Below, piece by piece: positions 36,740-53,929 of a stretch of DNA of 64,000 nucleotides. The translations under genes and the position numbers were made by a program. The number at the start of each line of letters is the position of its first letter. The stretch's first letter is position 1. The stretch is taken from NCBI GenBank assembly GCA_036231405.1, contig JAZAHK010000028.1:575-64574 (forward strand), given 5' to 3'. Source of the DNA: Nitrospinota bacterium. Its GTDB lineage: Bacteria > UBA8248. The notes under the pieces are model-generated. The model had not been told where the DNA came from. It searched no databases and saw only the letters and a list, made by a program, of their open reading frames with translations.

Positions 36740-36853
36740 TATTGATGAGTAGAAAATAAAAATGAGTTCATATGTTTCAATTATTTACAGAAATGACATC
36801 ATTGAGTGGTAGTGAACCTTAAAGCTAATAACACTGGACAAAAGGAGAAAATA

Positions 36854-37594
36854 ATGGATCGTGGCATCTGGGCAGTTTGGTACGACCTACCGAAAGAGGG
36901 CGAGGATGAATACCTTTCCTGGCTACATGAAGAGTACATCCCTCAAACTCTCAAACGTCCTGGATTCCTTTGGGCTGCACATTACAGATCCATTAGGAGC
37001 GAATACCATAATTCAAGCCCTGTACAGATGGCCAAAAGGTTCATGGATGAACCCGAACTGGGACGGGGAGGAGAATACTTCCTATTATTCGGGGCAGACA
37101 GCGCCCATTCATTTCTCGACCCTGCTCCCGAAGACCTACTGAACAGTTATGACGATCGTTCTCGCGAAATGATTGCCCGTCGACAAGGAGACCGAAGCGC
37201 CTATTTCACTGAGGTAGGTCGTGTAGATGGTCCAGAGATCGCGCGGCGCGGCCCTGGTCTTACTCCTGCTCCCATGGTCCAAATGGGCGCCTATCGGTCC
37301 GACGACGAAAATTACAACATCGATGTGGAAAGCTGGTACGTCCACCATCGCCTCGCCTCTTTGCCAGAGATGGAAGGATGCGTCGGGGCACGCAAACTCA
37401 TTTCCTTGGGAGGCTGGGCCCGACATGCTATCCTCTACGAATTCATTTCACCCGAAGCGCGGGAACACTACTATCAAATCCAAGAAGCTCCCGGTGGCGA
37501 CGCAAACCATCCTACCGGTGGTGTTGTCCGAAAACTCATCCATTCACCGGACTCACCGTCTTTAGGCGTGCGCATATGGCCAGAAGTGAAGTAG
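36854..37594 (+). CDS. hypothetical protein, GC-rich, apparent internal tandem duplication of an approximately 110-aa domain
   Basis: Start chosen at the ATG at 36854 behind an AGGAG RBS. The track ORF begins earlier, at 36806. The two halves share SW(L/Y)HEE/HH..P..pGf/eGc..A. GC reaches about 60% in the 3' half. Confidence 0.5.
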   Translation: MDRGIWAVWYDLPKEGEDEYLSWLHEEYIPQTLKRPGFLWAAHYRSIRSEYHNSSPVQMAKRFMDEPELGRGGEYFLLFGADSAHSFLDPAPEDLLNSYDDRSREMIARRQGDRSAYFTEVGRVDGPEIARRGPGLTPAPMVQMGAYRSDDENYNIDVESWYVHHRLASLPEMEGCVGARKLISLGGWARHAILYEFISPEAREHYYQIQEAPGGDANHPTGGVVRKLIHSPDSPSLGVRIWPEVK

Positions 37595-37643
37595 AGGGAA
37601 GATGGCTCAAAATCAGAACAGAGACGATAAATAACAGGTTGAG

Positions 37644-38439
37644 AATGAATAAAAAAAATAAAGAACTTACTACAGCAGATATTCTTAGGAATAAATTCTA
37701 TTCTGAATCTTCAGTTTTTCAACCTGCAAATCTTTTGAGGGAGTCTAGAAGACAGAATCGAATACCTCTTGGAGATGTCCCTCCTGTTTGTATTCTGGAT
37801 CCTGATGGTAATTTGGTGGACTATCTGAAGAATAAAAATCAGACCGTAAAAAATAAATATTGGGCTTGTTACCACTCAAACTTGTACACATTTGAAGTTA
37901 ATGGATTAACAGTAGGTATAATTCCGCGCGCCGTAGGATCTTCATACGCTGTATTAATAGCTGAACAGCTGTTTGTATCAGGCTGTGAACTTTTAATTAG
38001 TATCACTTCTGCCGGTGTCATCAAGGAATTAAATTTTGACAAACAATTTGCATTGATTACTCAAGCAATCAGAGATGAAGGAACGAGTTATCACTATTTA
38101 CCAAAAAATGAACCGTCAGTGCTTTGCCAAAAGTTACTCAGTAAATTAAGAAAAAATGGGAGTCTCTGGGTAGAAGTAAATAGCTGGACGACGGATGCTC
38201 CTTACAGAGAAACACAATTCGCAATAAATGCAATGAAGAAAGAAAATGTAACCTGTGTAGAAATGGAGGCTTCTGCATTGTATGCATTCGCAAAAGCAAA
38301 AGATAAAAAAGTCATTTGTTTTGCGCACCTAACAAACACAATGGCACAAGAAGAAGGTGATTTTGAGAAGGGAGATGATTTCGGGAGCTTGGAAATGATC
38401 AAGTTAATTGAAGAGATTCTTGAAAAATTGGGACAGTGA
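37644..38439 (+). CDS. nucleoside phosphorylase (PNP/UDP/MTA phosphorylase superfamily)
   Basis: VGIIPRAVGSSYAVLIAEQL and VEMEASALYAFAKA motifs. Start reassigned to the ATG at 37644 (MNKKNKELTT). The track ORF at 37378 overlaps the upstream gene in another frame. Low GC. Confidence 0.7.
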
Positions 38440-39793: not shown

Positions 39794-40588
39794 ATGAGTA
39801 AAAACGATCCAGCAATATCCCTGCAGGGAGTGTCTCGTATCTTTCACGCACAGCGTGGTGATGTGGTGGCTCTTGCGGATGTTGAACTTGACATTCAGGA
39901 TGGTGAGTTTATCACTATGGTAGGCCCGTCTGGTTGTGGCAAGTCAACAGCTCTCAATCTTGTAGCGGGTCTTTTGGAACCGTCTGGCGGCAATGTTTTA
40001 TTCAGAGGTTCCCCAACTAGTGGCATTAATCGAGAAATTGGCTACGTTACACAGTCTGATAACCTGTTCCCATGGCGAACAGTGATTGAAAATGTGATGT
40101 TTGGTATGGAAATGCGTGGTATTGGCACCAAGGAGGAGCGTCGAGATAAGGCTTTGGCGCTCCTTGATAGAGTCAACCTGACGGGTTTTCAAGATCACTA
40201 TAGACATGAGTTGTCTGGTGGTATGCGCCAAAGGGTAAATATTGTTCGCACTCTTGCTTATGATCCTAAAGTTCTTTTGTTGGATGAGCCGTTCGGGCCA
40301 CTTGATGCGCAAACTCGATTACAATTACAAGATTTGTTACTTAAACTCTGGCATGAAAGAGAAGGGATTACCGTAATTTTTATAACACATGAATTGAATG
40401 AAGCCATAGCTTTGGCTGATAGGGTGGTTGTAATGTCTGCGCGTCCTGGCCGAGTTCGTGAAGTGGTACCTGTAGATATCCCACGCCCGCGTGATATTTA
40501 TAGTATTCATTCTGATCCAAGTTTCCGTGATATATATGATCAAATTTGGAAGCATCTTGGAGAGGAAATGAAAGAGAGTTCACTGTGA
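39794..40588 (+). CDS. ABC transporter ATP-binding protein (SsuB/TauB/NrtD-like)
   Basis: Walker A GPSGCGKST, ABC signature LSGGMRQRV, Walker B LLLDEPF. Confidence 0.9.
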   Translation: MSKNDPAISLQGVSRIFHAQRGDVVALADVELDIQDGEFITMVGPSGCGKSTALNLVAGLLEPSGGNVLFRGSPTSGINREIGYVTQSDNLFPWRTVIENVMFGMEMRGIGTKEERRDKALALLDRVNLTGFQDHYRHELSGGMRQRVNIVRTLAYDPKVLLLDEPFGPLDAQTRLQLQDLLLKLWHEREGITVIFITHELNEAIALADRVVVMSARPGRVREVVPVDIPRPRDIYSIHSDPSFRDIYDQIWKHLGEEMKESSL

Positions 40589-41346
40589 ATGTGTTCCAAC
40601 TAACTGGTTGGCGAATTCTGGTTGCATTTGTTCTCCTTGCTTCGTGGCAACTGTTTGGCGGTGATTTGTTGTCAAATCCATACGAAATTGCTGAGTATTT
40701 ATGGGAATATATTGTGACCGGAGGCGATTTCTGGCTTGATATTACCTCTACTTTTAAAGCTACAGTGATCGGTTATTTTATAGGTGCAATTGCAGGTTTG
40801 CTCTTTGGACTTTTGCTGTCGCAGAGCGAGAAAGCCTCACTAATTTTCAAACCATATGTTCTTGCAGTCTATGGAATCCCACGAATTGCGCTGGCCCCAG
40901 TTTTCATTGCTTGGTTTGGTATTGCACTCCTATCAAAAGTAATGATGGCGGGGATGGTTACTTTCATGTTGGTGTTTTTTAATACCTATGAAGGAATTCG
41001 TTCGGTTGATTTAGATCTGCACAATACTGCCCGTGTCCTTGGTGCCGATCGCTGGCAACTGTTTTTTTACGTAACATTACCTAACGCAAGTCCATGGATA
41101 ACAGCAGGTCTCAGGATCGCGATCCCTCAAGCGTTGGTGGGCGCAGTAGTTGCGGAATTTATTGCTTCGGAGCACGGTCTGGGTTTTCGTATGATGGAAA
41201 ATACCGGACAGCTTGCAATGGAAGGAGTTATGGCCGGTGTTCTTATCTTAATGTTGATTGTTGTTCTTCTAAATTCTATTCTTGATAGAGTGGAGGATTA
41301 TATCTTGCGCTGGCGCCCAAAGATAACCGATACAGAGATCGTGTAA
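40546..41346 (+). CDS. ABC transporter permease (SsuC/TauC-like, BPD_transp_1)
   Basis: Six hydrophobic segments with an EAA-like loop. The true start may be the in-frame GTG at 40585, which overlaps the ATPase stop as GTGA. Confidence 0.8.
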   Translation: MEASWRGNEREFTVNVFQLTGWRILVAFVLLASWQLFGGDLLSNPYEIAEYLWEYIVTGGDFWLDITSTFKATVIGYFIGAIAGLLFGLLLSQSEKASLIFKPYVLAVYGIPRIALAPVFIAWFGIALLSKVMMAGMVTFMLVFFNTYEGIRSVDLDLHNTARVLGADRWQLFFYVTLPNASPWITAGLRIAIPQALVGAVVAEFIASEHGLGFRMMENTGQLAMEGVMAGVLILMLIVVLLNSILDRVEDYILRWRPKITDTEIV

Positions 41347-43684: not shown

Positions 43685-43783
43685 TCATTTCTTACCCACT
43701 TTATGTTACGATCACTGAATGAGCCGACTGCTGCCGTTATTTTGGTACGCATGTGTCGCTGCATTTATGCTAAAGGTATTTTT

Positions 43784-44959
43784 ATGTTTACAGCAACTAA
43801 AGATCGATCACTGCTTACTACCACTACGGGTGCCTTGCCACGTCCTACCTGGTATACTGAAAACCTTCGGGGGCAGCCATTATCCATAGGATTTTCACAG
43901 AAAGGTTATCGCGAACAACATTTTGATTGTCTCTCTTGTCATATTAGTGCGCAGAAGAGAGCAGGGATTGATATCTTTGTTGATGGTGATACAAGGCTCG
44001 ATGATGACGTCGCTGGTCGGAGCTGGGTGAGTTATGCCTATGAGCGGATAAAAGGTTTTGGTGTACCGGATATTTCTGTACAGCCCTATGCTGCAATGGC
44101 TGACAGTGGTCCTGGTGACTTCATATGGGAAGTTATAGAGACACGACTAACTCCTCATGTAGAGGATAAGATTGGTGAGACTTCGCTCCAACTCGATCGG
44201 GCATGGAAGGCGATTGCACCCATGACCAGTCGGCCCGTTAAGATTGGCTCAATCTCCGCCCAGGTTATTGCCCATATGTGCGTTAACGATCACTACACTA
44301 GCCGCTTTGACCTGCTAATGGCTTTATCGGAGGCATTGAATCATGAGTATCACGCTCTCGCCGATGCTGGAGCGCCAATTGTTCAAATAGAAGAACCCGC
44401 AATTCATCAATCGATGTACGCTCTCAACCCTGAAATTACTGCTGAACAGTATGTAGAAGCTTTTAACGTGGAAGTTGCTGGTTTGCGCGAAAAATGTGAA
44501 GTCTGGTGCCATGCTTGTTGGGGTAGCCCTGGTGCACAAAAAATGTTTCCTTCGGGAGCTTCCTACAAGGAGGCTCTACCATATTTTGATAAGCTCGACA
44601 TCGATGTCTTGACAGTCGAAGGTGCTACAAACGGCGGTATTGATGTCCCTCTATACGGTTCTATGATCTCCAAGGACAAAAAGATAGCGGTTGGAGTTAT
44701 CAGTCACCGCACAATGCAGATAGAAAGACCTGAAGAGGTTGCCAGTTTAATTCGTCTATGTCTCCAACATATTGAACCTGAGCGCTTGGTCCTCTCGAGT
44801 GATTGTGGATTTGGTCGTCAGTCAATGAGCCGTATGCATGCCTTCTATAAAATGGTGTCCCTGGTCCGGGGTGCAAATATTGTGCGTCGTGAGCTCGGAC
44901 TTGAGGAAGTTGCCGTTCCGGCAGCAGATCCCAACTTTTCTATGGTACCCATTCGTTAG
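43784..44959 (+). CDS. cobalamin-independent methionine synthase (MetE) C-terminal-domain-like / UroD-fold methyltransferase family protein
   Basis: Zn-ligand-like motifs VWCHACWG and LSSDCGFG as in Meth_synt_2. GC about 50%. Start set at the ATG at 43784. The track ORF starts at 43703. Confidence 0.65.
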   Translation: MFTATKDRSLLTTTTGALPRPTWYTENLRGQPLSIGFSQKGYREQHFDCLSCHISAQKRAGIDIFVDGDTRLDDDVAGRSWVSYAYERIKGFGVPDISVQPYAAMADSGPGDFIWEVIETRLTPHVEDKIGETSLQLDRAWKAIAPMTSRPVKIGSISAQVIAHMCVNDHYTSRFDLLMALSEALNHEYHALADAGAPIVQIEEPAIHQSMYALNPEITAEQYVEAFNVEVAGLREKCEVWCHACWGSPGAQKMFPSGASYKEALPYFDKLDIDVLTVEGATNGGIDVPLYGSMISKDKKIAVGVISHRTMQIERPEEVASLIRLCLQHIEPERLVLSSDCGFGRQSMSRMHAFYKMVSLVRGANIVRRELGLEEVAVPAADPNFSMVPIR

Positions 44960-44981
44960 TAATTGGTGTAAGAAAAAAATA

Positions 44982-45189
44982 ATATAGTAAGAGTTTAGAG
45001 AATCCTATCTTTCCCGAGCCAGAACTAATGAAGGCCCCAATTGTCTGGCTGATTTCCGATGCAACCAATGAAATTACAGGAATGCGTTATGATGCAAAGC
45101 CTTGGGACCCAAATAAACCTGCAGCCGAAGAAGCAGAACGAATTGGGGCTAAGGCAGGCGTTCTGCTCTACTCCATGCCAGACTACTAA
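44982..45189 (+). pseudogene. orphan 3' fragment of SDR gene (duplicate copy; last ~68 codons, ...KSLENPIFPEPELMKAPIVWLISDATNEITGMRYDAKPWDPNKPAAEEAERIGAKAGVLLYSMPDY*)
   Basis: Direct-repeat copy 2 (44982..45200) of the SDR 3' end. It has no 5' part or start codon. Confidence 0.85.
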
Positions 45190-45241
45190 GTGGGTTATCT
45201 GAAACATAGCTAACTACAAAATATGGTTGAATGATATGAAT

Positions 45242-46432
45242 TTACGGCAATCCACTTTGCTTAGAAAAAGTTTGCGTTAGTTCTAAAATATTTTCATCCA
45301 TTCCAGTGGATCCTAGAAATGATACTCCTACAGGGCAATCTTTAACTGTCAAAGCTGGCATAGATACTTGTGGAAATCCACCGAGACCAGCGATGCATGT
45401 TAATGCCATGGTTTTGGCTCTGAAGAGTTCAAGAGTTTTGCTGTCAGCTTGTTTTAGAGGAGCGATACAGGGTGCGGTTGGAAAAACAAGCACTGTTCCA
45501 GGTGGAATAATTTTGTCAATATGCTCCTTGATTTCGTTCCTTTTCTTCAGTGCTTCGTTAAATTCTGAATCAGTAATTGCTTCTGCAGTTTGAAATCGTT
45601 TATCTATACCCGGACCAAGGGAAGGATTATGTTCTCTGACCCATGGTAGATTGGTTATTTTAACTTCACCTGCTTGTATTATTCTGAACGTTTCCCACCA
45701 CTTATCGAGTCCTTCAGAAGAGACGGTAATTTGCTGGATATCTTTACCTAAAATCTCTTCAGTGAAATTTGTAAAAGCCAATTGGATTCCTGGGTCAGAG
45801 TTGTCGACGGCATCTTTGGCGACGATAATCCTGTTTATTGGTGTGTTTTCGCGTTTTCCTTTTAGTAATGAATGCCCAATTATAGGCATAAGGTTTGTTT
45901 TTGAGGAAAACCAACCTACTGTATCAAAGCTTGGTGCCATGGCACGTGCGCCATCAAGGCTTACACGTCCTATAGTAGGCCGAATCCCCCAAATTCCACA
46001 AAACGATGAAGGAATACGAACGGATCCCCCTGTGTCCGATCCTATTGAAAAATCTACAATCCCTGCTGCAACAGCTGCCGCTGAACCAGAAGATGAGCCA
46101 CCAGGTAATCGTTCGGGAGCTTTGCAATTAATCGGGGTGCCGTAATGTTTATTCGCACCTGTTAAGCTATAAAAAAACTCGTCGCAAATGTTCATTCCTA
46201 CTAAGGTTGCCCCGGAGTTTAATAGTTGAGTGATCGCTTTTGCGTTAACAGTAGAAGCCAGAGCGTGTTTATGAAATTCAGGGCTGCCATTTGAAGTTTT
46301 ATGTCCAATTACGTCGAATAGATCTTTCGCCATAAAATTAAGCCCAGCAAGGGGGCCAGTTTTTGAACCGGAAATAGGTTCTTTAAGGTTGTCTGGTACA
46401 AGACAGTTAACTGGATCTTCTAGAGGGAACAT
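45242..46432 (-). CDS. amidase-signature family amidase
   Basis: GGSSSGSAAAVAAGIVDFSIGSDTGGSVRIPSSFCGIWGIRPT, the AS signature with the Ser-cisSer-Lys triad. Confidence 0.85.
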   Translation of the reverse strand: MFPLEDPVNCLVPDNLKEPISGSKTGPLAGLNFMAKDLFDVIGHKTSNGSPEFHKHALASTVNAKAITQLLNSGATLVGMNICDEFFYSLTGANKHYGTPINCKAPERLPGGSSSGSAAAVAAGIVDFSIGSDTGGSVRIPSSFCGIWGIRPTIGRVSLDGARAMAPSFDTVGWFSSKTNLMPIIGHSLLKGKRENTPINRIIVAKDAVDNSDPGIQLAFTNFTEEILGKDIQQITVSSEGLDKWWETFRIIQAGEVKITNLPWVREHNPSLGPGIDKRFQTAEAITDSEFNEALKKRNEIKEHIDKIIPPGTVLVFPTAPCIAPLKQADSKTLELFRAKTMALTCIAGLGGFPQVSMPALTVKDCPVGVSFLGSTGMDENILELTQTFSKQSGLP

Positions 46433-47322
46433 TAAATTTTTGGTACCGGAATTTGGCCTGAAAACCAGTCAAGAATTTCTACGCCATCCCAGCATACTAC
46501 CCCAGGCTTAGAGAGGATTTTTTCAAAGGCCTCCCTAACATAAGGAATCCTATGTGGAGACCCAGAAAGGTATGTATGCATTGCTAAAGCCATAACTCTA
46601 GGTTGTCCATCTTCAGTTTCAGCATATATTGTGTCAAAATAGTCCAAGGCCCTATCTCGGTAGATGTGAGAGACGTTGTTTTGTATGTTCATCATTACAA
46701 TGTCATGAAGTTCATAATTATATGGAAGAGCTGCGACTGGTTTATGTTTAGTTCGTGCCCAGATGGGTTGGTCGTCTAAGACCCAGTCCCCTATATATTC
46801 GATCCCAGCTTCTGAAAGATGGTCTAAGGTGTCAAATGTTTGTGTTAGCCCAGGACCAAACCAACCCCGAGGCTGTGTGCCGGTAAAGTTTTTGATAACA
46901 TGCAATGAATGATCAATTACACTTCGTTCGTCTTCGAGTTTGTGCATTGGTAACTGCTCGTACGAATGTGCATTGAATTCCCATCCAGATTCAAGGCATG
47001 CCCCGGCAACTGCAGGATATTCTTCGCAAACTCGTGCATTTAGGGTTACCGTAGGTCTAATTCCCAAGTCATCCATCATTCTCTTTAAGCGCCAGAACCC
47101 CACGCGCATGCCGTATTCGTGCCAGGACCAATTTGGATGGTCAGGTGTCATTGGCAGACCTTGTGGTGGAGAAATTACCATTCGTGCCATAGCACGATCA
47201 ATATTCCAGACTTCAAGAGCAAGTATTGGCCAAATAATTACACGTCCATTGTCTGGCAAAGATAGTTGCTGCCTGCTCTCTATTGTTGAATAATCGATCC
47301 TTTCACTTGGCTTCATTTCCAC
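46432..47322 (-). CDS. polysaccharide deacetylase family protein (PuuE/allantoinase-like)
   Basis: 296-aa ORF. Its start overlaps the amidase stop by 1 nt. Deacetylase-like NodB pattern (TLDHLSEAGIEYIGDW...). Confidence 0.6.
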   Translation of the reverse strand: MEMKPSERIDYSTIESRQQLSLPDNGRVIIWPILALEVWNIDRAMARMVISPPQGLPMTPDHPNWSWHEYGMRVGFWRLKRMMDDLGIRPTVTLNARVCEEYPAVAGACLESGWEFNAHSYEQLPMHKLEDERSVIDHSLHVIKNFTGTQPRGWFGPGLTQTFDTLDHLSEAGIEYIGDWVLDDQPIWARTKHKPVAALPYNYELHDIVMMNIQNNVSHIYRDRALDYFDTIYAETEDGQPRVMALAMHTYLSGSPHRIPYVREAFEKILSKPGVVCWDGVEILDWFSGQIPVPKI

Positions 47323-48093: not shown

Positions 48094-49284
48094 ATGTCAG
48101 ATAAAGAAACCCCCATTTTGAGTGTAGGTCAACTTGTCACCTTAGATATAGGTCCCGTTGCACATGGAGGTCATTTTATTGCTCGACATAATGGGAGGGT
48201 AATCTTTGTCAGGCATGCAATTTCGGGAGAAAAAACCGTTGTTCGAATTACTTCCGTTACTTCTAAACTAGCTCATGGTGATGCTGTAGAAATACTTGTA
48301 CCTTCTAAAGATCGTGTTTCTGCTCCTTGTGTATATGCAGTTCCCGGTGGTTGCGGCGGCTGTGATTTTCAACATGTCTCGATAGAAGCACAAAGGGATC
48401 TGAAAAAATTTATTATACAAGATCAATTCAAGCGAATTGCGAAAATGGATGTAAATCCAGAGTTTATTCATGTTGAGCCTGAAACGGGATTACACTGGCG
48501 AACTCGTTTTGATTTGTCTGTTTCACGAAATGGGAAAGCTGGTTTATTTTCTCATAGAACAAAAGAAGTGCAAGAAATAGACAAATGCTTGATAGCTGTT
48601 GATACAATTAATGCATCGGATTTGTTTTCTCGTAATTGGAAGGGCGACGAAAGATTACGTGTGTCGGTATCCAGTTTGAATCAAATAAATATAAATCGAG
48701 CAGGTAGAAGTATTTCTGGTCCCACCCAACTGCATGAAGTTGTCGAGGATTATCGTTACACCATTTCCCCTGAAAGTTTTTGGCAAAGTCATAAGAATGC
48801 TCCGCGCATATTGCTTGAATTAGCAATGAAATTTATGGATTTAAAATCAGGAGATCGAGTTTGCGATTTGTATGGTGGAGCTGGTTTTTTCACTTTACCC
48901 ATATCAAAAAATATTGGTGATGCTGGAGAAGTCCACTTAATCGAAAGTGATAAAAGATGTATTCAAGATGCAAAAAAAATGTTTAAAAAAAATAAAAATA
49001 TAATAATTCATGCAGGAAAAGTTGAGGAAAAATTATCAAATATTAATGATATAGATCTTATTCTATTGGATCCTCCTAGAAACGGTGCTGGGAACAAAAT
49101 CATAAGTGAAATTATAGAGAAAAAACCAAGATCTATTCTTTATATTTCATGTGATCCTGCTTCATTAGCAAGAGATGCAAAGCTTTTGATCGATGACTCA
49201 TATTCTTTAGAGCAAATTACTGGGATCGATTTATTCCCCATGACTCATCATATTGAGTGTGTATCTTGTTTTAGTCGAAAGTAA
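48094..49284 (+). CDS. TRAM-domain class-I SAM-dependent RNA (uracil-5) methyltransferase (RlmD/RumA-like)
   Basis: N-terminal TRAM OB-fold. Cys cluster PCVYAVPGGCGGCDFQH. C-terminal DLYGGAGFFTL...LDPPRNGAG motifs. Confidence 0.8.
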   Translation: MSDKETPILSVGQLVTLDIGPVAHGGHFIARHNGRVIFVRHAISGEKTVVRITSVTSKLAHGDAVEILVPSKDRVSAPCVYAVPGGCGGCDFQHVSIEAQRDLKKFIIQDQFKRIAKMDVNPEFIHVEPETGLHWRTRFDLSVSRNGKAGLFSHRTKEVQEIDKCLIAVDTINASDLFSRNWKGDERLRVSVSSLNQININRAGRSISGPTQLHEVVEDYRYTISPESFWQSHKNAPRILLELAMKFMDLKSGDRVCDLYGGAGFFTLPISKNIGDAGEVHLIESDKRCIQDAKKMFKKNKNIIIHAGKVEEKLSNINDIDLILLDPPRNGAGNKIISEIIEKKPRSILYISCDPASLARDAKLLIDDSYSLEQITGIDLFPMTHHIECVSCFSRK

Positions 49285-49291
49285 TTCCTCT

Positions 49292-49918
49292 TCAAATGAG
49301 ACTTGCCATTTTTTGAACATACGCCTGTAAGTCTTCTGGTTTCGCGCTTGCTCTTCCCCCTCGAGCTTGTACTTCTTCTCCTTCAAGTTCGATTTGTAAA
49401 GAATCCATGAAACGATTCATTAAACCACGGAAACAAGCCACCATGGTGATTTCTACAATTTCTGCCGAATTAAAGTGTTTGGAAAGTTTTTCATAGGTTT
49501 CGTCGTCATATCTTGCGGTGTTCCAAGTGACTAGTTCTGCCCATTTGATGACAGATTTCTCACGGTCATCAAAGAGAGGACTTTCTAGATAATTGTCCCC
49601 ACTTAAAGTGTCAAGTTGTTCTTCCGTCCAGCCCGCAGTTCGCCCAACTAGGCGATTGTGTTTTGTTCAATACTGACACTCGTTAAGGGTAGATACTTTG
49701 ATCATAGCTAATGCTCGTATTTTGCCATCGAGTTTGCATCCTAGGTCATCTTTTTGAAGCACAGTTTGTAATGGAAGAAGAAATTTTAAAATTGCGGGGG
49801 AATGGGCAAATGTGCGCATCGAATTGGCAACCCTTCCATTAATATTATCTGCAGTTTCGAATGCGTTTCGTATATCAGGGTTATCTGCGTTATCTTGGAT
49901 AAAAGGTAATCTTGCCAT
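49292..49918 (-). CDS. AhpD/carboxymuconolactone-decarboxylase-family protein with in-frame TGA at the catalytic Cys position. Candidate selenoprotein (CxxU).
   Basis: The track ORF 49667..49918 ends ...LNECQY at a TGA (49667..49669). Manual translation continues in frame for 124 more codons, TKHNRLVGRTAGWTEEQLDTL...DREKSVIKWAELVTWNTA...VQKMASLI*, to the stop at 49292..49294. Conservation continues after the TGA and matches the paralog at 52206..52862. Confidence 0.7.
49640..49655 (-). promoter_or_regulatory. hairpin 11 nt downstream of the in-frame UGA. Candidate bacterial SECIS element.
   Basis: The mRNA reads UGA-ACAAAACACAA-UCGCC UAGUUG GGCGA. It has a 5-bp GC-rich stem, a 6-nt loop containing GU, and the canonical 11-nt spacing. 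Confidence 0.4.
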
Positions 49919-50044
49919 AAATATTCTCCTCTTTGATTTGTGAGAAATTAGGGTAGCTTTGATATACTAATTCATCAAGAGAAACTATTGTGAAATATTA
50001 AAAAGATAAGGATGTAGAATAATTATAGAAAAAGGTTTTTTGAA

Positions 50045-50449
50045 ATGGGATATGTAGATAAGACTTTGGCTGAAAACGAAAAAATAGTTTTCCGTTTGAA
50101 ATATCATTGGTCCTATACTCTCACGGCATTCTTATGGCTTCTTTTTTTTGGTTTGTTAATAATAGGAGTCATTCAATTTCTAAGAATGATGATTAATAAA
50201 TGGACAACAGAAAGGGTTCTTACTGCATTCAGGCTTATTAAAAAGACGGGTTGGATAAGCAGGAAAATCGAAAAAATTCGTGTAGCTAGAATGGAAGAAA
50301 TTAATCTTAGTCAATCATTCTGGGGGCGTATTTTTGGAGTGGAAAAAGTGAAAGTTACTGGAGCAGGTCGTGGTACTGTTGATTTGGTTTGGTTATCCGA
50401 TCCTATTGGATTTCAAAAAACTCTAAACAACGCTAAATTCAAAAGCTAA
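50045..50449 (+). CDS. bacterial PH-domain (bPH_2/YdbS-like) membrane protein
   Basis: 134 aa. Two TM segments followed by a PH-like region. Confidence 0.5.
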   Translation: MGYVDKTLAENEKIVFRLKYHWSYTLTAFLWLLFFGLLIIGVIQFLRMMINKWTTERVLTAFRLIKKTGWISRKIEKIRVARMEEINLSQSFWGRIFGVEKVKVTGAGRGTVDLVWLSDPIGFQKTLNNAKFKS

Positions 50450-50482
50450 AAAAACAAAACCTTTATTTTCAAAGGAGATTTA

Positions 50483-51271
50483 ATGGATTGTCGAATGGAT
50501 GGTCGTAATGCTCTAATAACGGGAAGCAGCCGGGGCCTAGGGCGTGCGATGGCTTTGAACTTTGCTTCTTCTGGTGCGAATGTTGTGATTTGTGGAAGGC
50601 GAAGTGATGTTCTCAATAAAACACGAAAAGAAATTGAAAACATTTCTAATAACAAGGTCGTTGCTATTACTGCCGATGTTAGTACGGCAGATGGTGTGAA
50701 TTCTTTAATTAAAAGTGCTCAAGAAAAATTGGGTGATATAGATATTTTGGTTAATAACGCGGGCATTTCAAAACACGGGCCTTTCATAGAAATTACAGAT
50801 GAAGAGTGGACACAGGATTTTGAACTTAAGGTTTTTGGTGCGATTCGAAGTTGTCGATTACTTTTCCCAGGAATGGTAGAGAGGAAATGGGGAAGGATCA
50901 TCAACGTACTCAACCTTGGTGCAAAGGCTCCTCCTGCACTAGGTGCTCCAACAGCTGTTTCGCGTGCAGCAGGTATGGCGATTACAAAGGTGTTATCCAA
51001 GGAAGGTGCTCCGTATAATGTTCTTGTGAATGCATTGTTGGTTGGTCGTATTGAAAGCGATCAGTGGCTTAATCGATGGGAAAAGTCGGATCAATCGATT
51101 TCATATGATGAATATTTAGAGGACATGGCGAATCAACTGAATTTACCTATGGGAAGAGTGGGTACTGCAGAAGAATTTGGAAATTTAGCGAGTTTTTTAT
51201 GTTCGGAAGCAGGTTCCTACATTAGTGGAGTAGCGATTAATGTCGATGGCGGTACAAGTTCAGTCGTTTAG
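50483..51271 (+). CDS. SDR-family oxidoreductase
   Basis: ITGSSRGLGRAMA glycine-rich motif. NNAG. Confidence 0.85.
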   Translation: MDCRMDGRNALITGSSRGLGRAMALNFASSGANVVICGRRSDVLNKTRKEIENISNNKVVAITADVSTADGVNSLIKSAQEKLGDIDILVNNAGISKHGPFIEITDEEWTQDFELKVFGAIRSCRLLFPGMVERKWGRIINVLNLGAKAPPALGAPTAVSRAAGMAITKVLSKEGAPYNVLVNALLVGRIESDQWLNRWEKSDQSISYDEYLEDMANQLNLPMGRVGTAEEFGNLASFLCSEAGSYISGVAINVDGGTSSVV

Positions 51272-51390
51272 TACTAATTTATAGTCTAATTGATAAGGTT
51301 TATAGATTTTCAATAAAAATACATTGAACTGAAACAAAGAAATAGAACAATAAATCCTCATGAAAAAAACGAAGTAAGAGGGAGAAAAAT

Positions 51391-52146
51391 ATGGGTGAAT
51401 TAGAAAGAAAGGTAGCTCTTGTAACTGGTGCATCTCGAGGAATCGGACGAGCGGTTTCCATTCGTTTAGCTTCTGAGGGTGCTTCGATATATTTGGCAGC
51501 TGATGGTACCGAAGAGGAATTGTCAGAAACGGAAAGAGAATGTCATAAGGCAGGCGCAGTTAATGTTGCTTGGGGCATTCACGACATATCGAGTTCTGGA
51601 GAAGCAGAACTCATGGTTTTAGATGCTCATAAACGTATGGGTCGAATTGATATTCTCGTTAATAATGCAGGGATCAGGGTTCGGAAAAGTTTTGGTGATT
51701 TTTCTCAAGATGAATTTGATCGAGTTGTAGCAGTGAATCTCCGCGCACCTTTCATGGCAAGTCAGGCAGTAGTTTCCATTATGAAATCTCAGGGCGGTGG
51801 ACATATTATTCATATGGCTAGTCAACTGGGTATTGTAGCTTCTCGTTATGGTTCAGTTTATAGCCTTACTAAGGCAGGTCTGATCCAACTTACTCGTTCG
51901 ATGGCTCTTGAATTAGGGAAGGAAGGTATATCGGTAAATGCTATTTGCCCTGGTCCTATTTCGACTGATGGATTTATGGCAAATCGAAATCCTGGGGAAC
52001 TTGAACAACGTGCGCGTGATGTCCCTATAGGACGTTTTGGTACGGTAGAAGAGGTTGCCGCTATGGTTTCTTTTCTCGTTTCTAAAGATGCGGCTTTCAT
52101 TTTAGGTCATGCTTTGGTTATGGATGGAGGATATGTTGTTCACTAG
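51391..52146 (+). CDS. SDR-family oxidoreductase
   Basis: VTGASRGIGRAV. NNAG. YSLTKAGL catalytic YxxxK. Confidence 0.85.
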   Translation: MGELERKVALVTGASRGIGRAVSIRLASEGASIYLAADGTEEELSETERECHKAGAVNVAWGIHDISSSGEAELMVLDAHKRMGRIDILVNNAGIRVRKSFGDFSQDEFDRVVAVNLRAPFMASQAVVSIMKSQGGGHIIHMASQLGIVASRYGSVYSLTKAGLIQLTRSMALELGKEGISVNAICPGPISTDGFMANRNPGELEQRARDVPIGRFGTVEEVAAMVSFLVSKDAAFILGHALVMDGGYVVH

Positions 52147-52205
52147 TAAATTATAAATAGGAGAAAAGGATGTTCTTGATATAGATTAATAAAAGGAGAT
52201 ATGGA

Positions 52206-52862
52206 ATGGCATTAATTGAACTCATTTTACCAGAGAACGCCCAAGGGGAACAGAAGAAAACTTATGAGATTTTAGAGCATATTCGTGCAAAACATGTATT
52301 TTCGCAGATGGCAAGTGTAAATTCTCCATTCTTGTCTCGGATTATTTCTGCATTAGTTTATTCCTTGCGTGAAGGTATGGGGACTATCCTTCCTTCTAAG
52401 ATCAAACAAATGGCGATAATTAAGACTAGTCAAATTAATACTTGTGACTATTGACTTAATCATAATACTGCTCTCGGAAGAGCAACTGGGATAACTGATG
52501 AAGAGGCAGAAGTTGTTTTTTCTGAAGAATATTTAGATTCCGAAATTCTTACTGATCGAGAGAAGGCAGCAGTTCTTTGGGCGGAACATGTCACCCGAAA
52601 CACAGCAAAACTTCGTCCAGAAATACAAGAAGAGGTAAAGAAACATTTTGCAGATCAGGAACTATTTGAACTTACTTTTATAATTAGTTACTTTAATTTT
52701 AGAAATCGCCTACATGATTCATTACTATTGCCTTTAGATGGAGAAGACACTTTGCAAGACAATGTTGGTTTCCTTAAATTTGACCCTGGTAGTATGAAGA
52801 ACTATCTTCAGGCTGTAGTTGATAATTGGCCAGATGAATTTCCAAAACCTAATGTGAACTGA
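52206..52862 (+). CDS. AhpD/carboxymuconolactone-decarboxylase-family protein with in-frame TGA at the catalytic Cys position. Candidate selenoprotein (CxxU). Paralog of 49292..49918.
   Basis: The track ORF 52206..52454 ends ...INTCDY at TGA 52452..52454. The frame continues LNHNTALGRATGITDEEAEVV...DREKAAVLWAEHVTRNTA...KPNVN* to the stop at 52860..52862. It aligns column for column with the other paralog across the TGA. Confidence 0.7.
52469..52484 (+). promoter_or_regulatory. hairpin 14 nt downstream of in-frame UGA. Candidate SECIS element.
   Basis: tgctct cgga agagca, a 6-bp stem with a 4-nt loop. Confidence 0.3.
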
Positions 52863-52870
52863 GGAATTTC

Positions 52871-53929
52871 ATGTTTGATAATATTGCCGTTTTTGGTACT
52901 GGAGCCATAGGGAGTAGTACAGCTGCGGATCTTACTGACGCGGGGTATAACGTGACGATCGTGGATCAGTGGCCCGCACATGTTGAGGCAATGAAAAAAG
53001 GTGGTCTGCACATCCAAATGCCAGATCTTGATTTAAAGGTTAAGGTTAAAGCATTGCACATTTGTGAGCTTGCTTCGGAAAAGCCAGAATTTGATCTTAT
53101 TATTCTGGCAGTTAAATCTTTTGATACCCGTTGGATGGCTGAACTAATGTTCCCCTATTTGAGTGAGAATGGAGTGCTAGTTGGTTTGCAAAATAGTATG
53201 AATGAAGTAGAGATAACCTGCGATATCATTGGAAGGGAAAGAATAGTCGGAGCCTGTATCGAACTTTCTGGTGAGTTATTTACTCCTGGTTTTGTTCAGA
53301 GAAATACGCCAAGAACGGGCACTTGGTTTGCGGTTGGGGAACTTAATGGGAGTATTACCCCCCGACTTCAAGAAATTCAAAAAATCCTTAGTCATGTTGC
53401 AAAAGTAGAAATATCTGAAAATATCCTTGGTACAAAATGGACGAAGCTAATAATCAACTCTATGAGTATGGGTCCTTGGGGTTTGATTGGTTTATTAAAT
53501 CGTGAGGTGATGCAGTTGCCTGGCATGTTTGATTTGGCAGTTGATCTCGGAATGGAAACAGTTGCAGTGGGGACTGCGCTGGGCCTAAATGTAGAACCGG
53601 TGTTTGGATTAAGGGAAGACGATTTTACTGGAGACGAGGATAAAATGTTACTGAATGCTTTGAAAACGATGACTGGTCATACAGGTCCAAGAGCTCGTAC
53701 TGCACCGATTCACGATCATTTAAAGGACCGAAAAAATGAAATAGAGTTTATTAATGGACTCGTTTCACGTAAGGGGAAAGAGCTCGGAGTTCCTACTCCA
53801 TTTAATGATGTGATAAGTGAGCTAGCAAGGGAAATTAATCAAGGCAATCTAATTATGGATCCTTCAAACTATAATCTCATTAAGAAAAAATTGTCAGATA
53901 ACGGACTGAATGTCGACTATATGAAATGA
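52871..53929 (+). CDS. 2-dehydropantoate 2-reductase (ApbA/PanE) family oxidoreductase
   Basis: IAVFGTGAIGSSTAADL N-terminal Rossmann. ApbA_C-like C-terminus. Confidence 0.75.
   Translation: MFDNIAVFGTGAIGSSTAADLTDAGYNVTIVDQWPAHVEAMKKGGLHIQMPDLDLKVKVKALHICELASEKPEFDLIILAVKSFDTRWMAELMFPYLSENGVLVGLQNSMNEVEITCDIIGRERIVGACIELSGELFTPGFVQRNTPRTGTWFAVGELNGSITPRLQEIQKILSHVAKVEISENILGTKWTKLIINSMSMGPWGLIGLLNREVMQLPGMFDLAVDLGMETVAVGTALGLNVEPVFGLREDDFTGDEDKMLLNALKTMTGHTGPRARTAPIHDHLKDRKNEIEFINGLVSRKGKELGVPTPFNDVISELAREINQGNLIMDPSNYNLIKKKLSDNGLNVDYMK

What the first reader, a model, noticed from the sequence alone, without database searches (positions are those of the whole stretch)
49292..49918. AhpD-like gene with in-frame TGA exactly at the catalytic Cys position: candidate selenoprotein #1
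The ORF track truncates this minus-strand gene at TGA (49667..49669) after ...STLNECQY. Reading through the TGA gives 124 more in-frame codons of protein-like sequence (TKHNRLVGRTAGWTEEQLDTL...DREKSVIKWAELVTWNTA...) before a real stop at 49292. In the AhpD/CMD family the redox motif is C-x-x-C-x-x(-x)-H. Here the second Cys column is occupied by TGA (C-Q-Y-U-T-K-H), which is the classic Cys-to-Sec substitution. A 5-bp/6-nt-loop hairpin begins 11 nt after the UGA, which is canonical bacterial SECIS spacing. AhpD-like proteins are a recognised bacterial selenoprotein family, but the ORF track treats this one as an 83-aa fragment.
Basis: partly seen in the sequence, partly recalled or inferred. 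Interest (0 to 1): 0.85.

Follow-up and report, generated by a model that had tools for sequence, protein, structure and literature searches.

The report
Mis-split AhpD-like selenoprotein gene pair
The "83-aa fragment" is really the front half of a 208-residue AhpD-like redox enzyme whose in-frame TGA almost certainly encodes selenocysteine. This is a correct but ordinary finding, because the selenoprotein family was described in 2005 and is common in marine bacteria.

Summary
The minus-strand gene 49292..49918 has an in-frame TGA at 49667..49669 in the motif C-Q-Y-TGA-T-K-H, followed by 124 conserved codons. A 33%-identical paralog (52206..52862, +) has TGA in the same column, at 52452..52454.

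TGA is a normal stop elsewhere in the window (10 of 49 long ORFs). In 80 homologous genomic loci the column is TGA in 77 and TGC (Cys) in 3. In addition, 43 full-length protein homologs carry Cys there. Purifying selection is as strong downstream of the TGA as upstream (dN/dS about 0.1). The Pfam CMD domain and the predicted all-alpha fold both span the TGA.

A 6-bp, 4-nt-loop hairpin follows the TGA, 11 nt downstream in paralog 1 and 14 nt in paralog 2. Paralog 1 meets the published bacterial SECIS model; paralog 2 is borderline on energy. The hairpin coincides with the lowest synonymous-codon diversity in the gene in two independent clades. Base-pair covariation is weak.

The genes belong to the known "AhpD-like, CxxU" selenoprotein family (Sargasso Sea 2005, GOS 2008). 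SelA, SelB, SelD and tRNA-Sec could not be checked for this genome.

Verdict: real, new members of a known kind, low interest. Minor twist: in paralog 1's clade all 29 sequences use Sec and all have Ala in place of the proton-relay Glu.

The parts
49292..49918 (-). Paralog 1: full AhpD-like/CMD-family selenoprotein gene, 208 codons plus stop. ATG at 49916..49918, Sec codon 84, stop TGA at 49292..49294.
   Evidence: sequence and translation. (Pfam CMD PF02627, 26.9 bits against a cutoff of 23, residues 60-107, spanning the TGA). (NCBIfam YciW-related (seleno)protein and TIGR01926, both below cutoff). (orthologs at 84-90% in Nitrospinaceae-labelled MAGs, all with TGA). (dN/dS about 0.1 on both sides of the TGA).
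49667..49669 (-). In-frame TGA, the predicted Sec codon (U84) of paralog 1, in the motif C81-Q-Y-U84-T-K-H87-N88.
   Evidence: TGA is conserved in all 29 clade-1 sequences. It aligns with Cys51 of PA0269.
49640..49655 (-). Putative bacterial SECIS hairpin of paralog 1: UCGCCU-AGUU-GGGCGA. It starts 11 nt after the UGA, and the apical loop lies 17 nt from the UGA.
   Evidence: fold. (the same hairpin in all clade-1 loci, with loop GGUC, GGUU or AGUU, and CGUU in one locus). (codons CGC, GGG and CGA invariant 28/28; lowest synonymous diversity in the gene). (bSECIS constraints).
49922..49932 (-). Shine-Dalgarno region (AAAGAGGAGAA) upstream of the paralog 1 ATG.
   Evidence: read directly from the sequence. 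No comparable ribosome-binding site plus start codon follows the TGA; the first ATG-initiated ORF downstream in frame starts at 49444.
52206..52862 (+). Paralog 2: second AhpD-like selenoprotein gene, 218 codons plus stop, 33% identical to paralog 1.
   Evidence: Orthologs at 88-92%, with TGA, lie next to the paralog 1 orthologs in L005, L006 and L007.
52452..52454 (+). In-frame TGA, the predicted Sec codon of paralog 2, in the motif C-D-Y-U-L-N-H-N.
   Evidence: P0011 is a close ortholog in which a gene caller read this codon as W.
52469..52484 (+). Putative SECIS hairpin of paralog 2: UGCUCU-CGGA-AGAGCA. It starts 14 nt after the UGA, and the loop lies 20 nt from the UGA.
   Evidence: The position matches the clade-2 consensus hairpin GUCGCUU-GGUC-AAGCGGC. 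The hairpin alone is -7.2 kcal/mol, borderline against the -7.5 criterion.
50483..51271 (+). Short-chain dehydrogenase gene between the two paralogs. The paralog 1 / SDR / paralog 2 / ApbA arrangement is conserved in three related MAG contigs. This is context, not a proven functional partner.
   Evidence: Pfam adh_short. (synteny in L005-L007).

Best explanation
Both genes encode selenocysteine-containing members of the AhpD-like/CMD superfamily, the 'AhpD-like, CxxU' selenoprotein family.

Translation starts at the annotated ATG. When the ribosome reaches UGA at codon 84, a short mRNA hairpin 11 nt (paralog 1) or 14 nt (paralog 2) downstream is inferred to be bound by SelB.GTP.Sec-tRNASec, which inserts Sec instead of terminating. 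The result is a 208-aa (or 218-aa) single-domain all-alpha protein.

Sec84 sits in the first turn of a helix, in the position of the second Cys of the AhpD C-x-x-C. Together with Cys81 it is inferred to cycle between a selenol/thiol state and a selenenylsulfide state, assisted by the invariant His87/Asn88. In this way the protein would act as a thiol-dependent peroxidase or reductase, either reducing hydroperoxides directly or re-reducing a peroxiredoxin-type partner.

Shown here: the conserved TGA, the TGA/Cys pairing, selection on the downstream frame, the conserved hairpin, and family and fold membership. Inferred: actual Sec insertion, SelB binding, and the substrate.
For: 1. The in-frame TGA and read-through frame are confirmed.
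2. The code is standard. TGA ends 10 of 49 long ORFs, and only these two genes are split by TGA.
3. The column is TGA in 77 of 80 genomic loci from several phyla and TGC in 3. Among protein homologs, 43 full-length ones have Cys and 7 were called with W.
4. Three further independent metagenome contigs have the same TGA.
5. dN/dS is 0.07-0.14 upstream and 0.08-0.10 downstream of the TGA against L005 and L007.
6. The Pfam CMD hit spans the TGA. An AlphaFold model of a Cys-form homolog (pLDDT 90.8) is one continuous all-alpha domain with the CxxC at a helix N-terminus. Its best structural matches are AhpD-like peroxidases.
7. The hairpin is conserved in both clades, mostly with a GGUC/GGUU loop. 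The lowest synonymous-codon diversity in about 150 codons falls exactly on it in both clades (Mann-Whitney p = 0.005 and 0.003). The specific GGUC-loop hairpin is absent from the 3 Cys-form loci.
8. The paralog 1 hairpin satisfies all four published bSECIS constraints.
9. Literature: AhpD-like (COG2128/TIGR01926) CxxU is an established and abundant marine selenoprotein family.
10. L068's MAG carries a TGA-form homolog and is listed in BSepDB among the bacteria richest in selenoproteins. BSepDB includes only species with the Sec pathway.
Against: No tRNA-Sec, SelA, SelB or SelD was found in the 64-kb window or in the fetched loci flanks. tRNA-Sec was scanned in 60 of those loci. SelA, SelB and SelD were sought only with simple sequence motifs recalled from memory. 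The rest of this genome could not be retrieved, so the organism's Sec-decoding ability is only inferred.

Base-pair covariation for the hairpin is weak: 11 of 500 shuffles reach the observed score, and only one pair shows a clear compensatory change. The single-sequence fold energies are not unusual. The paralog 2 hairpin alone is -7.2 kcal/mol, just short of the -7.5 criterion, and its orthologs have an interrupted stem.

Neither paralog reaches the curated cutoff of any NCBIfam selenoprotein model. No biochemical data exist for this subfamily.
Confidence: 0.9

Rival explanations
1. The UGA is recoded, but to cysteine or another standard amino acid rather than selenocysteine, for example through a suppressor or tRNA-Sec-like tRNA charged with Cys. 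The full-length protein is still made.
For: Cys is the residue in homologs. No Sec machinery was seen in the sequence held here. Sequence data alone cannot distinguish this reading from Sec insertion.
Against: A conserved SECIS-like hairpin with the GGUC/GGUU loop sits at the canonical distance. The family is curated as a selenoprotein family. A MAG carrying a homolog has the Sec pathway according to BSepDB. If Cys were wanted, a one-base change from TGA to TGC/TGT would provide it, yet TGA is kept in 77 of 80 loci.
Confidence: 0.04
2. The TGA is a true stop. The locus is either a pseudogene or two separate small genes: an 83-aa N-terminal protein and an independently translated C-terminal piece.
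For: Gene callers treat it this way. Public databases hold many fragments that end at the TGA column or start after it, labelled 'hypothetical protein'.
Against: The 74 codons between the TGA and the next in-frame ATG are conserved, with dN/dS about 0.1. The CMD domain and the predicted fold are continuous across the TGA. Full-length Cys forms exist. TGA is retained in the same column in 77 loci across phyla and in two 33%-identical paralogs. There is no ribosome-binding site plus start codon just after the TGA.
Confidence: 0.03
3. The organism uses a genetic code in which TGA is a sense codon (Trp or Gly, tables 4 or 25), or the TGA is a sequencing or assembly error for TGC/TGT.
For: Seven database proteins show W in this column, so some pipelines translated these contigs with table 4.
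Against: TGA ends 10 of 49 long ORFs in the window and does not interrupt any other gene. W never occurs together with a TGG codon in the loci examined. The same TGA is found in independent assemblies from JGI, ENA, Logan and GTDB genomes, which rules out error.
Confidence: 0.01

Closest known systems
AhpD-like selenoprotein family ('AhpD-like 1', COG2128 / TIGR01926, motif CxxU; Zhang, Fomenko & Gladyshev 2005, PMC1088965; Zhang & Gladyshev 2008, PMC2398784; 2026 review PMC13188914)
   Same: It has the same superfamily domain (CMD/AhpD) and the same CxxU motif, with Sec in the second position. It has Cys-containing homologs and a hairpin just downstream of the UGA with G in the apical loop. 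It also comes from marine metagenomes. One database fragment of this family is itself labelled COG2128.
   Different: Both paralogs score below the curated cutoffs of TIGR01926 (46 and 41 bits against 81.8) and of the NCBIfam selenoprotein equivalogs NF053654 and NF041238. They therefore form subfamilies that no specific model covers, which explains why public annotation splits them. Paralog 1's clade is Sec in all 29 sequences seen and has Ala at the proton-relay Glu position.
PA0269 (P. aeruginosa AhpD-like protein; PDB 2ijc/2o4d; PMC3141380) and M. tuberculosis AhpD
   Same: It is the best PDB sequence match (E = 8e-10). The C-x-Y-C motif aligns with C81-x-Y83-U84. The fold is all-alpha with the motif at a helix N-terminus. 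PA0269 has measured weak H2O2-reducing activity and a proton relay of Glu36, Cys48, Tyr50, Cys51 and His55.
   Different: Sec replaces the second Cys. The invariant His is at +3 (H87) rather than +4, with Asn88 aligned to His55. The Glu36 position is Ala in paralog 1 and Gln in paralog 2. The proteins are about 60 residues longer than PA0269, closer to the 180-190-aa 'peroxidase-related' structures 6k40, 2oyo and 2prr.
E. coli fdhF-type bacterial SECIS (published bSECIS consensus model, PMC13188914 Fig. 2)
   Same: A hairpin lies inside the ORF immediately 3' of the UGA. The upper stem is 6-7 bp and the loop 4 nt, with G in the first two loop positions. The loop is 17-21 nt from the UGA. Most family members have a GGUC/GGUU loop, and paralog 1 has the 11-nt spacer. 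That these last two features match fdhF is my recollection, not something tested here.
   Different: No bulged U or extended lower helix is evident. The window's own loops are AGUU and CGGA rather than GGUC. SelB binding is untested.
Bmp8 debrominase (CMD family; PDB 6ohi/6ohj)
   Same: It matches by sequence (E = 3e-5) and by fold (TM about 0.7), and it comes from marine bacteria. That it uses a Cys-based redox mechanism is my recollection, not something tested here.
   Different: Identity is only about 20%. The window has no brominated-pyrrole biosynthetic genes nearby. Nothing here tests dehalogenase activity. It is a lead only.

Membership tests
Bacterial selenoprotein (general definition) | In-frame UGA at a position occupied by Cys in homologs | tested here: met
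   The column is TGA in 77 of 80 loci and TGC in 3. 43 full-length Cys-form proteins were found.
Bacterial selenoprotein (general definition) | Coding sequence conserved and under purifying selection on both sides of the UGA | tested here: met
   dN/dS is 0.14 upstream and 0.10 downstream against L005, and 0.07 and 0.08 against L007. Amino-acid identity is equal on both sides.
Bacterial selenoprotein (general definition) | bSECIS element: 3-9 nt loop, 4-16 bp stem, G in the first two loop positions, 16-37 nt from UGA to loop, MFE <= -7.5 kcal/mol (PMC13188914) | tested here: met
   Paralog 1: 4-nt loop AGUU, 6 bp, 17 nt, -8.6 kcal/mol for the hairpin alone. Paralog 2: loop CGGA, 6 bp, 20 nt, but -7.2 kcal/mol for the hairpin alone, so borderline. 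Conservation is supported by synonymous-site constraint. Covariation is weak.
Bacterial selenoprotein (general definition) | Genome encodes selA, selB, selD and tRNA-Sec (selC) | not testable with these tools
   None was found in the window or in the fetched loci flanks (tRNA-Sec in 60 loci; motif scan). The SelA/B/D check used simple motifs recalled from memory. The source contig is not retrievable. Indirect evidence: L068's MAG is in BSepDB, which lists only Sec-pathway species.
Bacterial selenoprotein (general definition) | Selenium actually incorporated (75Se labelling or mass spectrometry) | not testable with these tools
   Experimental only.
CMD / AhpD superfamily (Pfam PF02627) | Score above the Pfam gathering threshold | tested here: met
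   26.9 and 31.5 bits against a cutoff of 23. Paralog 2 also passes TIGR00778 ahpD_dom, 28.7 against 27.8.
CMD / AhpD superfamily (Pfam PF02627) | All-alpha AhpD-like fold with C-x-x-C at a helix N-terminus | tested here: met
   This was tested on a proxy. The AF2 model is of the Cys-form homolog P0012 (39% identical to paralog 1), pLDDT 90.8. Foldseek top hits are 6k40, 2oyo, 2prr and 2gmy, with target-normalised TM 0.76-0.87. The window protein itself could not be submitted.
AhpD-like peroxidase (PA0269 / MtAhpD type) | Proton-relay residues Glu, Cys, (Tyr/His), Cys and His at +4 | tested here: not met
   Cys81, Tyr83 and U84 align. However, the Glu position is Ala (paralog 1) or Gln (paralog 2), and His is at +3, not +4. 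The relay is therefore only partly conserved.
AhpD-like selenoprotein, TIGR01926 'peroxidase-related enzyme' subfamily | Score above the NCBIfam curated cutoff (81.8 bits) | tested here: not met
   46.4 and 40.9 bits. The genes are related to the model, but the curated model does not cover them.
AhpD-like selenoprotein, TIGR01926 'peroxidase-related enzyme' subfamily | CxxU redox motif | tested here: met
   C-Q-Y-U and C-D-Y-U. The motif is listed as CxxU.
NF053654 YciW-related (seleno)protein / NF041238 AhpD_rel_CFYUT | Score above the equivalog cutoff (310 / 175 bits) | tested here: not met
   68 and 50 bits for NF053654; 22 and 25 bits for NF041238.

The most novel reading that the evidence does not exclude
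Paralog 1's clade may be an obligately Sec-dependent AhpD-like subfamily. All 29 sequences use Sec, and all have Ala where AhpD-type enzymes have the proton-relay Glu. It may have dispensed with the general base because the selenol is already ionised. Together with paralog 2 and the conserved adjacent SDR/ApbA reductases, it could form a two-selenoprotein cassette acting on a non-peroxide substrate, for example a Bmp8/deiodinase-like reductive dehalogenation or another small-molecule reduction.
Probability: 0.07. Interest if true: 0.55.

Novelty: new member of a known kind. Interest (0 to 1): 0.25.

Why it matters
The main value is for annotation. Two genes in this window, and well over fifty database entries from Nitrospinota-labelled, betaproteobacterial, Acidimicrobiia, Rhodospirillales and SAR324 MAGs, are recorded as fragments that end at the TGA or begin after it, many of them labelled 'hypothetical protein'. 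They are in fact halves of a full-length AhpD-like selenoprotein. No curated NCBIfam model reaches its cutoff on these subfamilies, so automatic pipelines will keep splitting them. A new model would fix this and would raise selenoproteome counts for these lineages.

Biologically, the result adds two members and one conserved gene arrangement to a family whose substrate is still unknown. It does not change what is known about Sec decoding.

Tried and rejected
I modelled a Cys-form homolog instead.
2. Rfam found nothing, either at gathering thresholds over the whole window or at E <= 1 over 49000..53000. I could not determine whether Rfam models short in-ORF bacterial SECIS hairpins, so this says little either way.
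3. tRNA-Sec and SelD/SelB/SelA motif scans of the window and loci found nothing. Exact-protein look-ups for genes at the window edges also found nothing, so the window could not be extended.
4. The covariation test on the clade-2 hairpin was essentially uninformative because the stem is nearly invariant. I relied on synonymous-site constraint instead.
5. The search for a conserved partner gene across 80 loci was noisy, because high-GC loci produce spurious ORFs, and it showed no universal neighbour. The SDR adjacency occurs in only 10 neighbourhoods: five clade 1 loci, three clade 2 loci and the two window paralogs.
6. A scan for other TGA-split genes in the window found only these two.
7. BSepDB supplements are not held, so I could not confirm that these exact subfamilies are listed there.
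8. The terminator-like hits at 49640-49655 (+) and 52467-52486 (-) are the SECIS-like hairpins read on the wrong strand, inside coding sequence. I rejected them as terminators.

Full report
**1. The observation**

The minus-strand ORF 49667..49918 ends ...STLNECQY at TGA 49667..49669. Reading through gives 124 further codons up to the stop at 49292..49294. The product is 208 residues with the motif C81-Q-Y-[TGA]84-T-K-H87. A Shine-Dalgarno sequence (GAGGAG) precedes the ATG. Nothing comparable follows the TGA, and the first ATG-initiated ORF downstream in frame starts 74 codons later.

A second gene at 52206..52862 (+) has TGA at 52452..52454 in the motif C-D-Y-[TGA]-L-N-H. Its product is 33% identical to the first over 190 residues.

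**2. It is not a code change, an error or a pseudogene**

The window has 39% G+C. Its 49 long ORFs end in TAA (24), TAG (15) or TGA (10). A six-frame scan for TGA codons flanked by open frame finds only these two genes with protein-like sequence on both sides. The others are shadows of real genes or junctions between adjacent genes.

Three independent metagenome contigs (JGI, ENA, Logan) that encode 72-76% identical orthologs all have TGA at the same codon and a conserved frame through to the end. A scan of one genome per species returned 80 loci. The column is TGA in 77 and TGC in 3 (L057, L072, L082), always within C-x-Y-[U/C]-x-x-H-N.

A profile search of the protein database found 43 full-length homologs with Cys. 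It also found 7 with W, which I take to be TGA read under a TGA=Trp table. One of these, P0011, is the ortholog of paralog 2. The search further returned 3 N-terminal fragments ending exactly at the column, and more than 50 C-terminal fragments that sources label 'hypothetical protein' or 'carboxymuconolactone decarboxylase family protein'.

Nei-Gojobori estimates against the closest orthologs give dN/dS of 0.14 upstream and 0.10 downstream (L005), and 0.07 and 0.08 (L007). The 3' half is therefore translated.

**3. Family and fold**

Both products pass Pfam CMD (PF02627), and the match spans the TGA. The best NCBIfam matches are NF053654 'YciW-related (seleno)protein', TIGR01926 'peroxidase-related enzyme' and NF041238 'AhpD_rel_CFYUT'. 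All are below their curated cutoffs.

The best solved relatives by sequence are PA0269 (2ijc/2o4d, E = 8e-10), Atu0492, 2pfx, 2prr and the debrominase Bmp8. The window protein itself could not be submitted for modelling. A Cys-form homolog, P0012, modelled with pLDDT 90.8 as one continuous all-alpha domain, with the C-x-x-C at the N-terminus of helix 82-94. Foldseek places it among AhpD-like peroxidases (6k40, 2oyo, 2prr, 2gmy, 3c1l, PA0269) and Bmp8.

In PA0269 the tested active site is a relay of Glu36, Cys48, Tyr50, Cys51 and His55. In the alignment, C81, Y83 and U84 of paralog 1 match Cys48, Tyr50 and Cys51, so Sec replaces the second Cys. The invariant His is at +3 (H87), with Asn88 under His55.

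The residue at the Glu position differs by group:
- Clade 1 (paralog 1's clade): Ala in all 29 sequences, all of which are Sec forms.
- Paralog 2: Gln (read from alignment A1), as in the single W-form homolog with Q there.
- Clade 2 Sec forms: Glu in 47 of 51.
- Cys forms: Glu in all 46.

**4. The RNA element**

Paralog 1 has UCGCCU-AGUU-GGGCGA starting 11 nt after the UGA (window 49640..49655). Paralog 2 has UGCUCU-CGGA-AGAGCA starting 14 nt after the UGA (52469..52484). Alone, neither fold is unusual (z = -1.2 and -0.2).

Across homologs the picture changes. All clade-1 sequences keep UCGCCU-[GGUC/GGUU/AGUU, CGUU in one locus]-GGGCGA. Most clade-2 sequences keep GUCGCUU-GGUC-AAGCGGC at the position of paralog 2's hairpin.

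Among about 150 aligned codons, the 8-codon stretch with the lowest synonymous diversity is +2..+9 in clade 1 and +3..+10 in clade 2. In clade 1, CGC, GGG and CGA are each fixed 28/28. In clade 2 the counts are TCG 42/42, CTT 49/52, GGT 50/52 and CAA 48/49. The one-sided Mann-Whitney p-values are 0.005 and 0.003. The three Cys-form loci lack the GGUC loop and this stem.

Formal covariation is weak. Only pair 24-29 shows UA to CG, in 3 sequences, and 11 of 500 shuffles reach the observed score. The support is therefore conservation, not covariation.

I tested the hairpins against the published bSECIS model: loop 3-9 nt, stem 4-16 bp, G in the first two loop positions, 16-37 nt from UGA to loop, MFE <= -7.5 kcal/mol. 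Paralog 1 passes with 4 nt, 6 bp, AGUU, 17 nt and -8.6 kcal/mol. Paralog 2 passes the geometry, but its hairpin alone is -7.2 kcal/mol. Its orthologs have an interrupted stem with a GGAA loop.

**5. Organism and context**

The nearest relatives of paralog 1 (84-90%) are three Tara-type MAGs labelled 'uncultured Nitrospinaceae'. Betaproteobacteria/Burkholderiales MAGs follow at 70-74%. In the three MAG contigs, the paralog 2 ortholog (88-92%, with TGA) lies beside the paralog 1 ortholog. An SDR gene sits between them and an ApbA-type reductase follows.

The window's other neighbours are an amidase, a polysaccharide deacetylase, a MOSC protein, a TRAM/U5 RNA methyltransferase, a bPH_2 protein, a second SDR, two ApbA reductases, an FAA hydrolase and peptidases. 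No partner gene is conserved across the whole family.

**6. The Sec machinery**

The window has no tRNA at all and no Rfam hit. No tRNA-Sec was found in 60 of the fetched loci, and a simple motif scan of the window and all loci found no SelD, SelB or SelA signature. The source contig is not in the look-up collection. This test remains open.

Indirect evidence comes from BSepDB, which includes only species with SelA, SelB and SelD. [quoted passage not shown] Locus L068, a TGA-form homolog, comes from that MAG.

**7. Comparison with what is known**

'AhpD-like protein' (COG2128, CxxU) was reported as a new selenoprotein family in the Sargasso Sea, with 27 sequences. In GOS, 'AhpD-like 1' is the fourth most abundant family listed, with 299 Sec and 902 Cys sequences. 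The 2026 review lists it under TIGR01926 with motif CxxU.

The genes here are therefore new, unmodelled members of a known family. The mechanism proposed is the standard one: SelB-dependent Sec insertion, followed by Cys81/Sec84 redox cycling. Sec insertion itself and the substrate are inferred, not shown.

**8. Verdict**

The finding is ordinary for marine bacteria and matters mainly for annotation. The only mildly unusual points are the all-Sec clade 1 with Ala at the relay Glu position and the conserved paralog 1 / SDR / paralog 2 arrangement. Interest is 0.25.

Noticed in passing
window 49292..49918 (paralog 1) and loci L001-L003, L005-L030: All 29 clade-1 sequences use Sec, and all have Ala at the position of the AhpD proton-relay Glu (PA0269 Glu36). 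In contrast, 47 of 51 clade-2 Sec forms and all 46 Cys forms keep Glu, and paralog 2 has Gln. Loss of the general base may go together with obligate Sec use.
   Followed up: partly
window 49292..53929; L005, L006, L007: The arrangement paralog 1 (divergent) / SDR / paralog 2 / ApbA reductase is conserved in three related MAG contigs. Relative to L006, the window carries extra bPH_2 (50045..50449) and second SDR (51391..52146) genes. Relative to L007, it carries an extra MetE-like/amidase/deacetylase block (43703..47322).
   Followed up: partly
whole window; The gene content (amidase, several SDRs, FAA hydrolase, peptidases M24 and S15, ABC permease, metallo-beta-lactamase fold) looks heterotrophic. 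That is odd for a nitrite-oxidising Nitrospina. BSepDB places similarly named 'Nitrospinaceae/Nitrospinota' MAGs in GTDB phylum UBA8248, so the NCBI label of the nearest MAGs may be misleading.
   Followed up: no
P0001 (666-bp ENA contig) and P0003 (1057-bp ENA contig): P0001 is a 169-aa ortholog in which the whole active-site segment (about residues 65-105, including CxxU and the hairpin) is cleanly missing. P0003 joins an acyl-CoA dehydrogenase N-terminal domain in frame to the sequence just after the TGA. Each could be an assembly chimera or a real deletion or fusion variant.
   Followed up: no
L017 (7843 and 10250); L073, L075, L078 (10271 and 10954): Several genomes carry two TGA-containing family members in tandem or within 3 kb, as in the window. 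Paired AhpD-like selenoprotein genes therefore recur in Rhodospirillales-labelled MAGs and in one MAG labelled 'Chitinophaga pinensis' (L017).
   Followed up: no
L002 1771..2361 (-): In one betaproteobacterial-type contig, an AhpC-TSA/Redoxin (peroxiredoxin-like) gene lies about 400 bp downstream of the AhpD-like selenoprotein gene. This recalls the Prx-like/AhpD-like gene pairs reported from GOS.
   Followed up: no
window 49640..49655 (+) and 52467..52486 (-): The consensus terminator scan flags both SECIS-like hairpins as terminator-like sites on the strand opposite to the genes. They lie inside coding sequence and are almost certainly not terminators.
   Followed up: yes
window 36806..37594 / 37378..38439 and 39794..40588 / 40546..41346: Two pairs of long same-strand ORFs overlap, by 217 and 43 bases. 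The first overlap is large enough to suggest a mis-called start or a frameshift.
   Followed up: no
clade-1 loci L008-L030 compared with the window: Paralog 1 orthologs in high-GC Betaproteobacteria/Burkholderiales MAGs from soil, groundwater and fresh water are 70-74% identical to the 39%-GC marine gene. They keep the hairpin nucleotides almost unchanged, including the Arg codon CGA. This suggests either horizontal transfer between phyla or very strong RNA-level constraint.
   Followed up: partly
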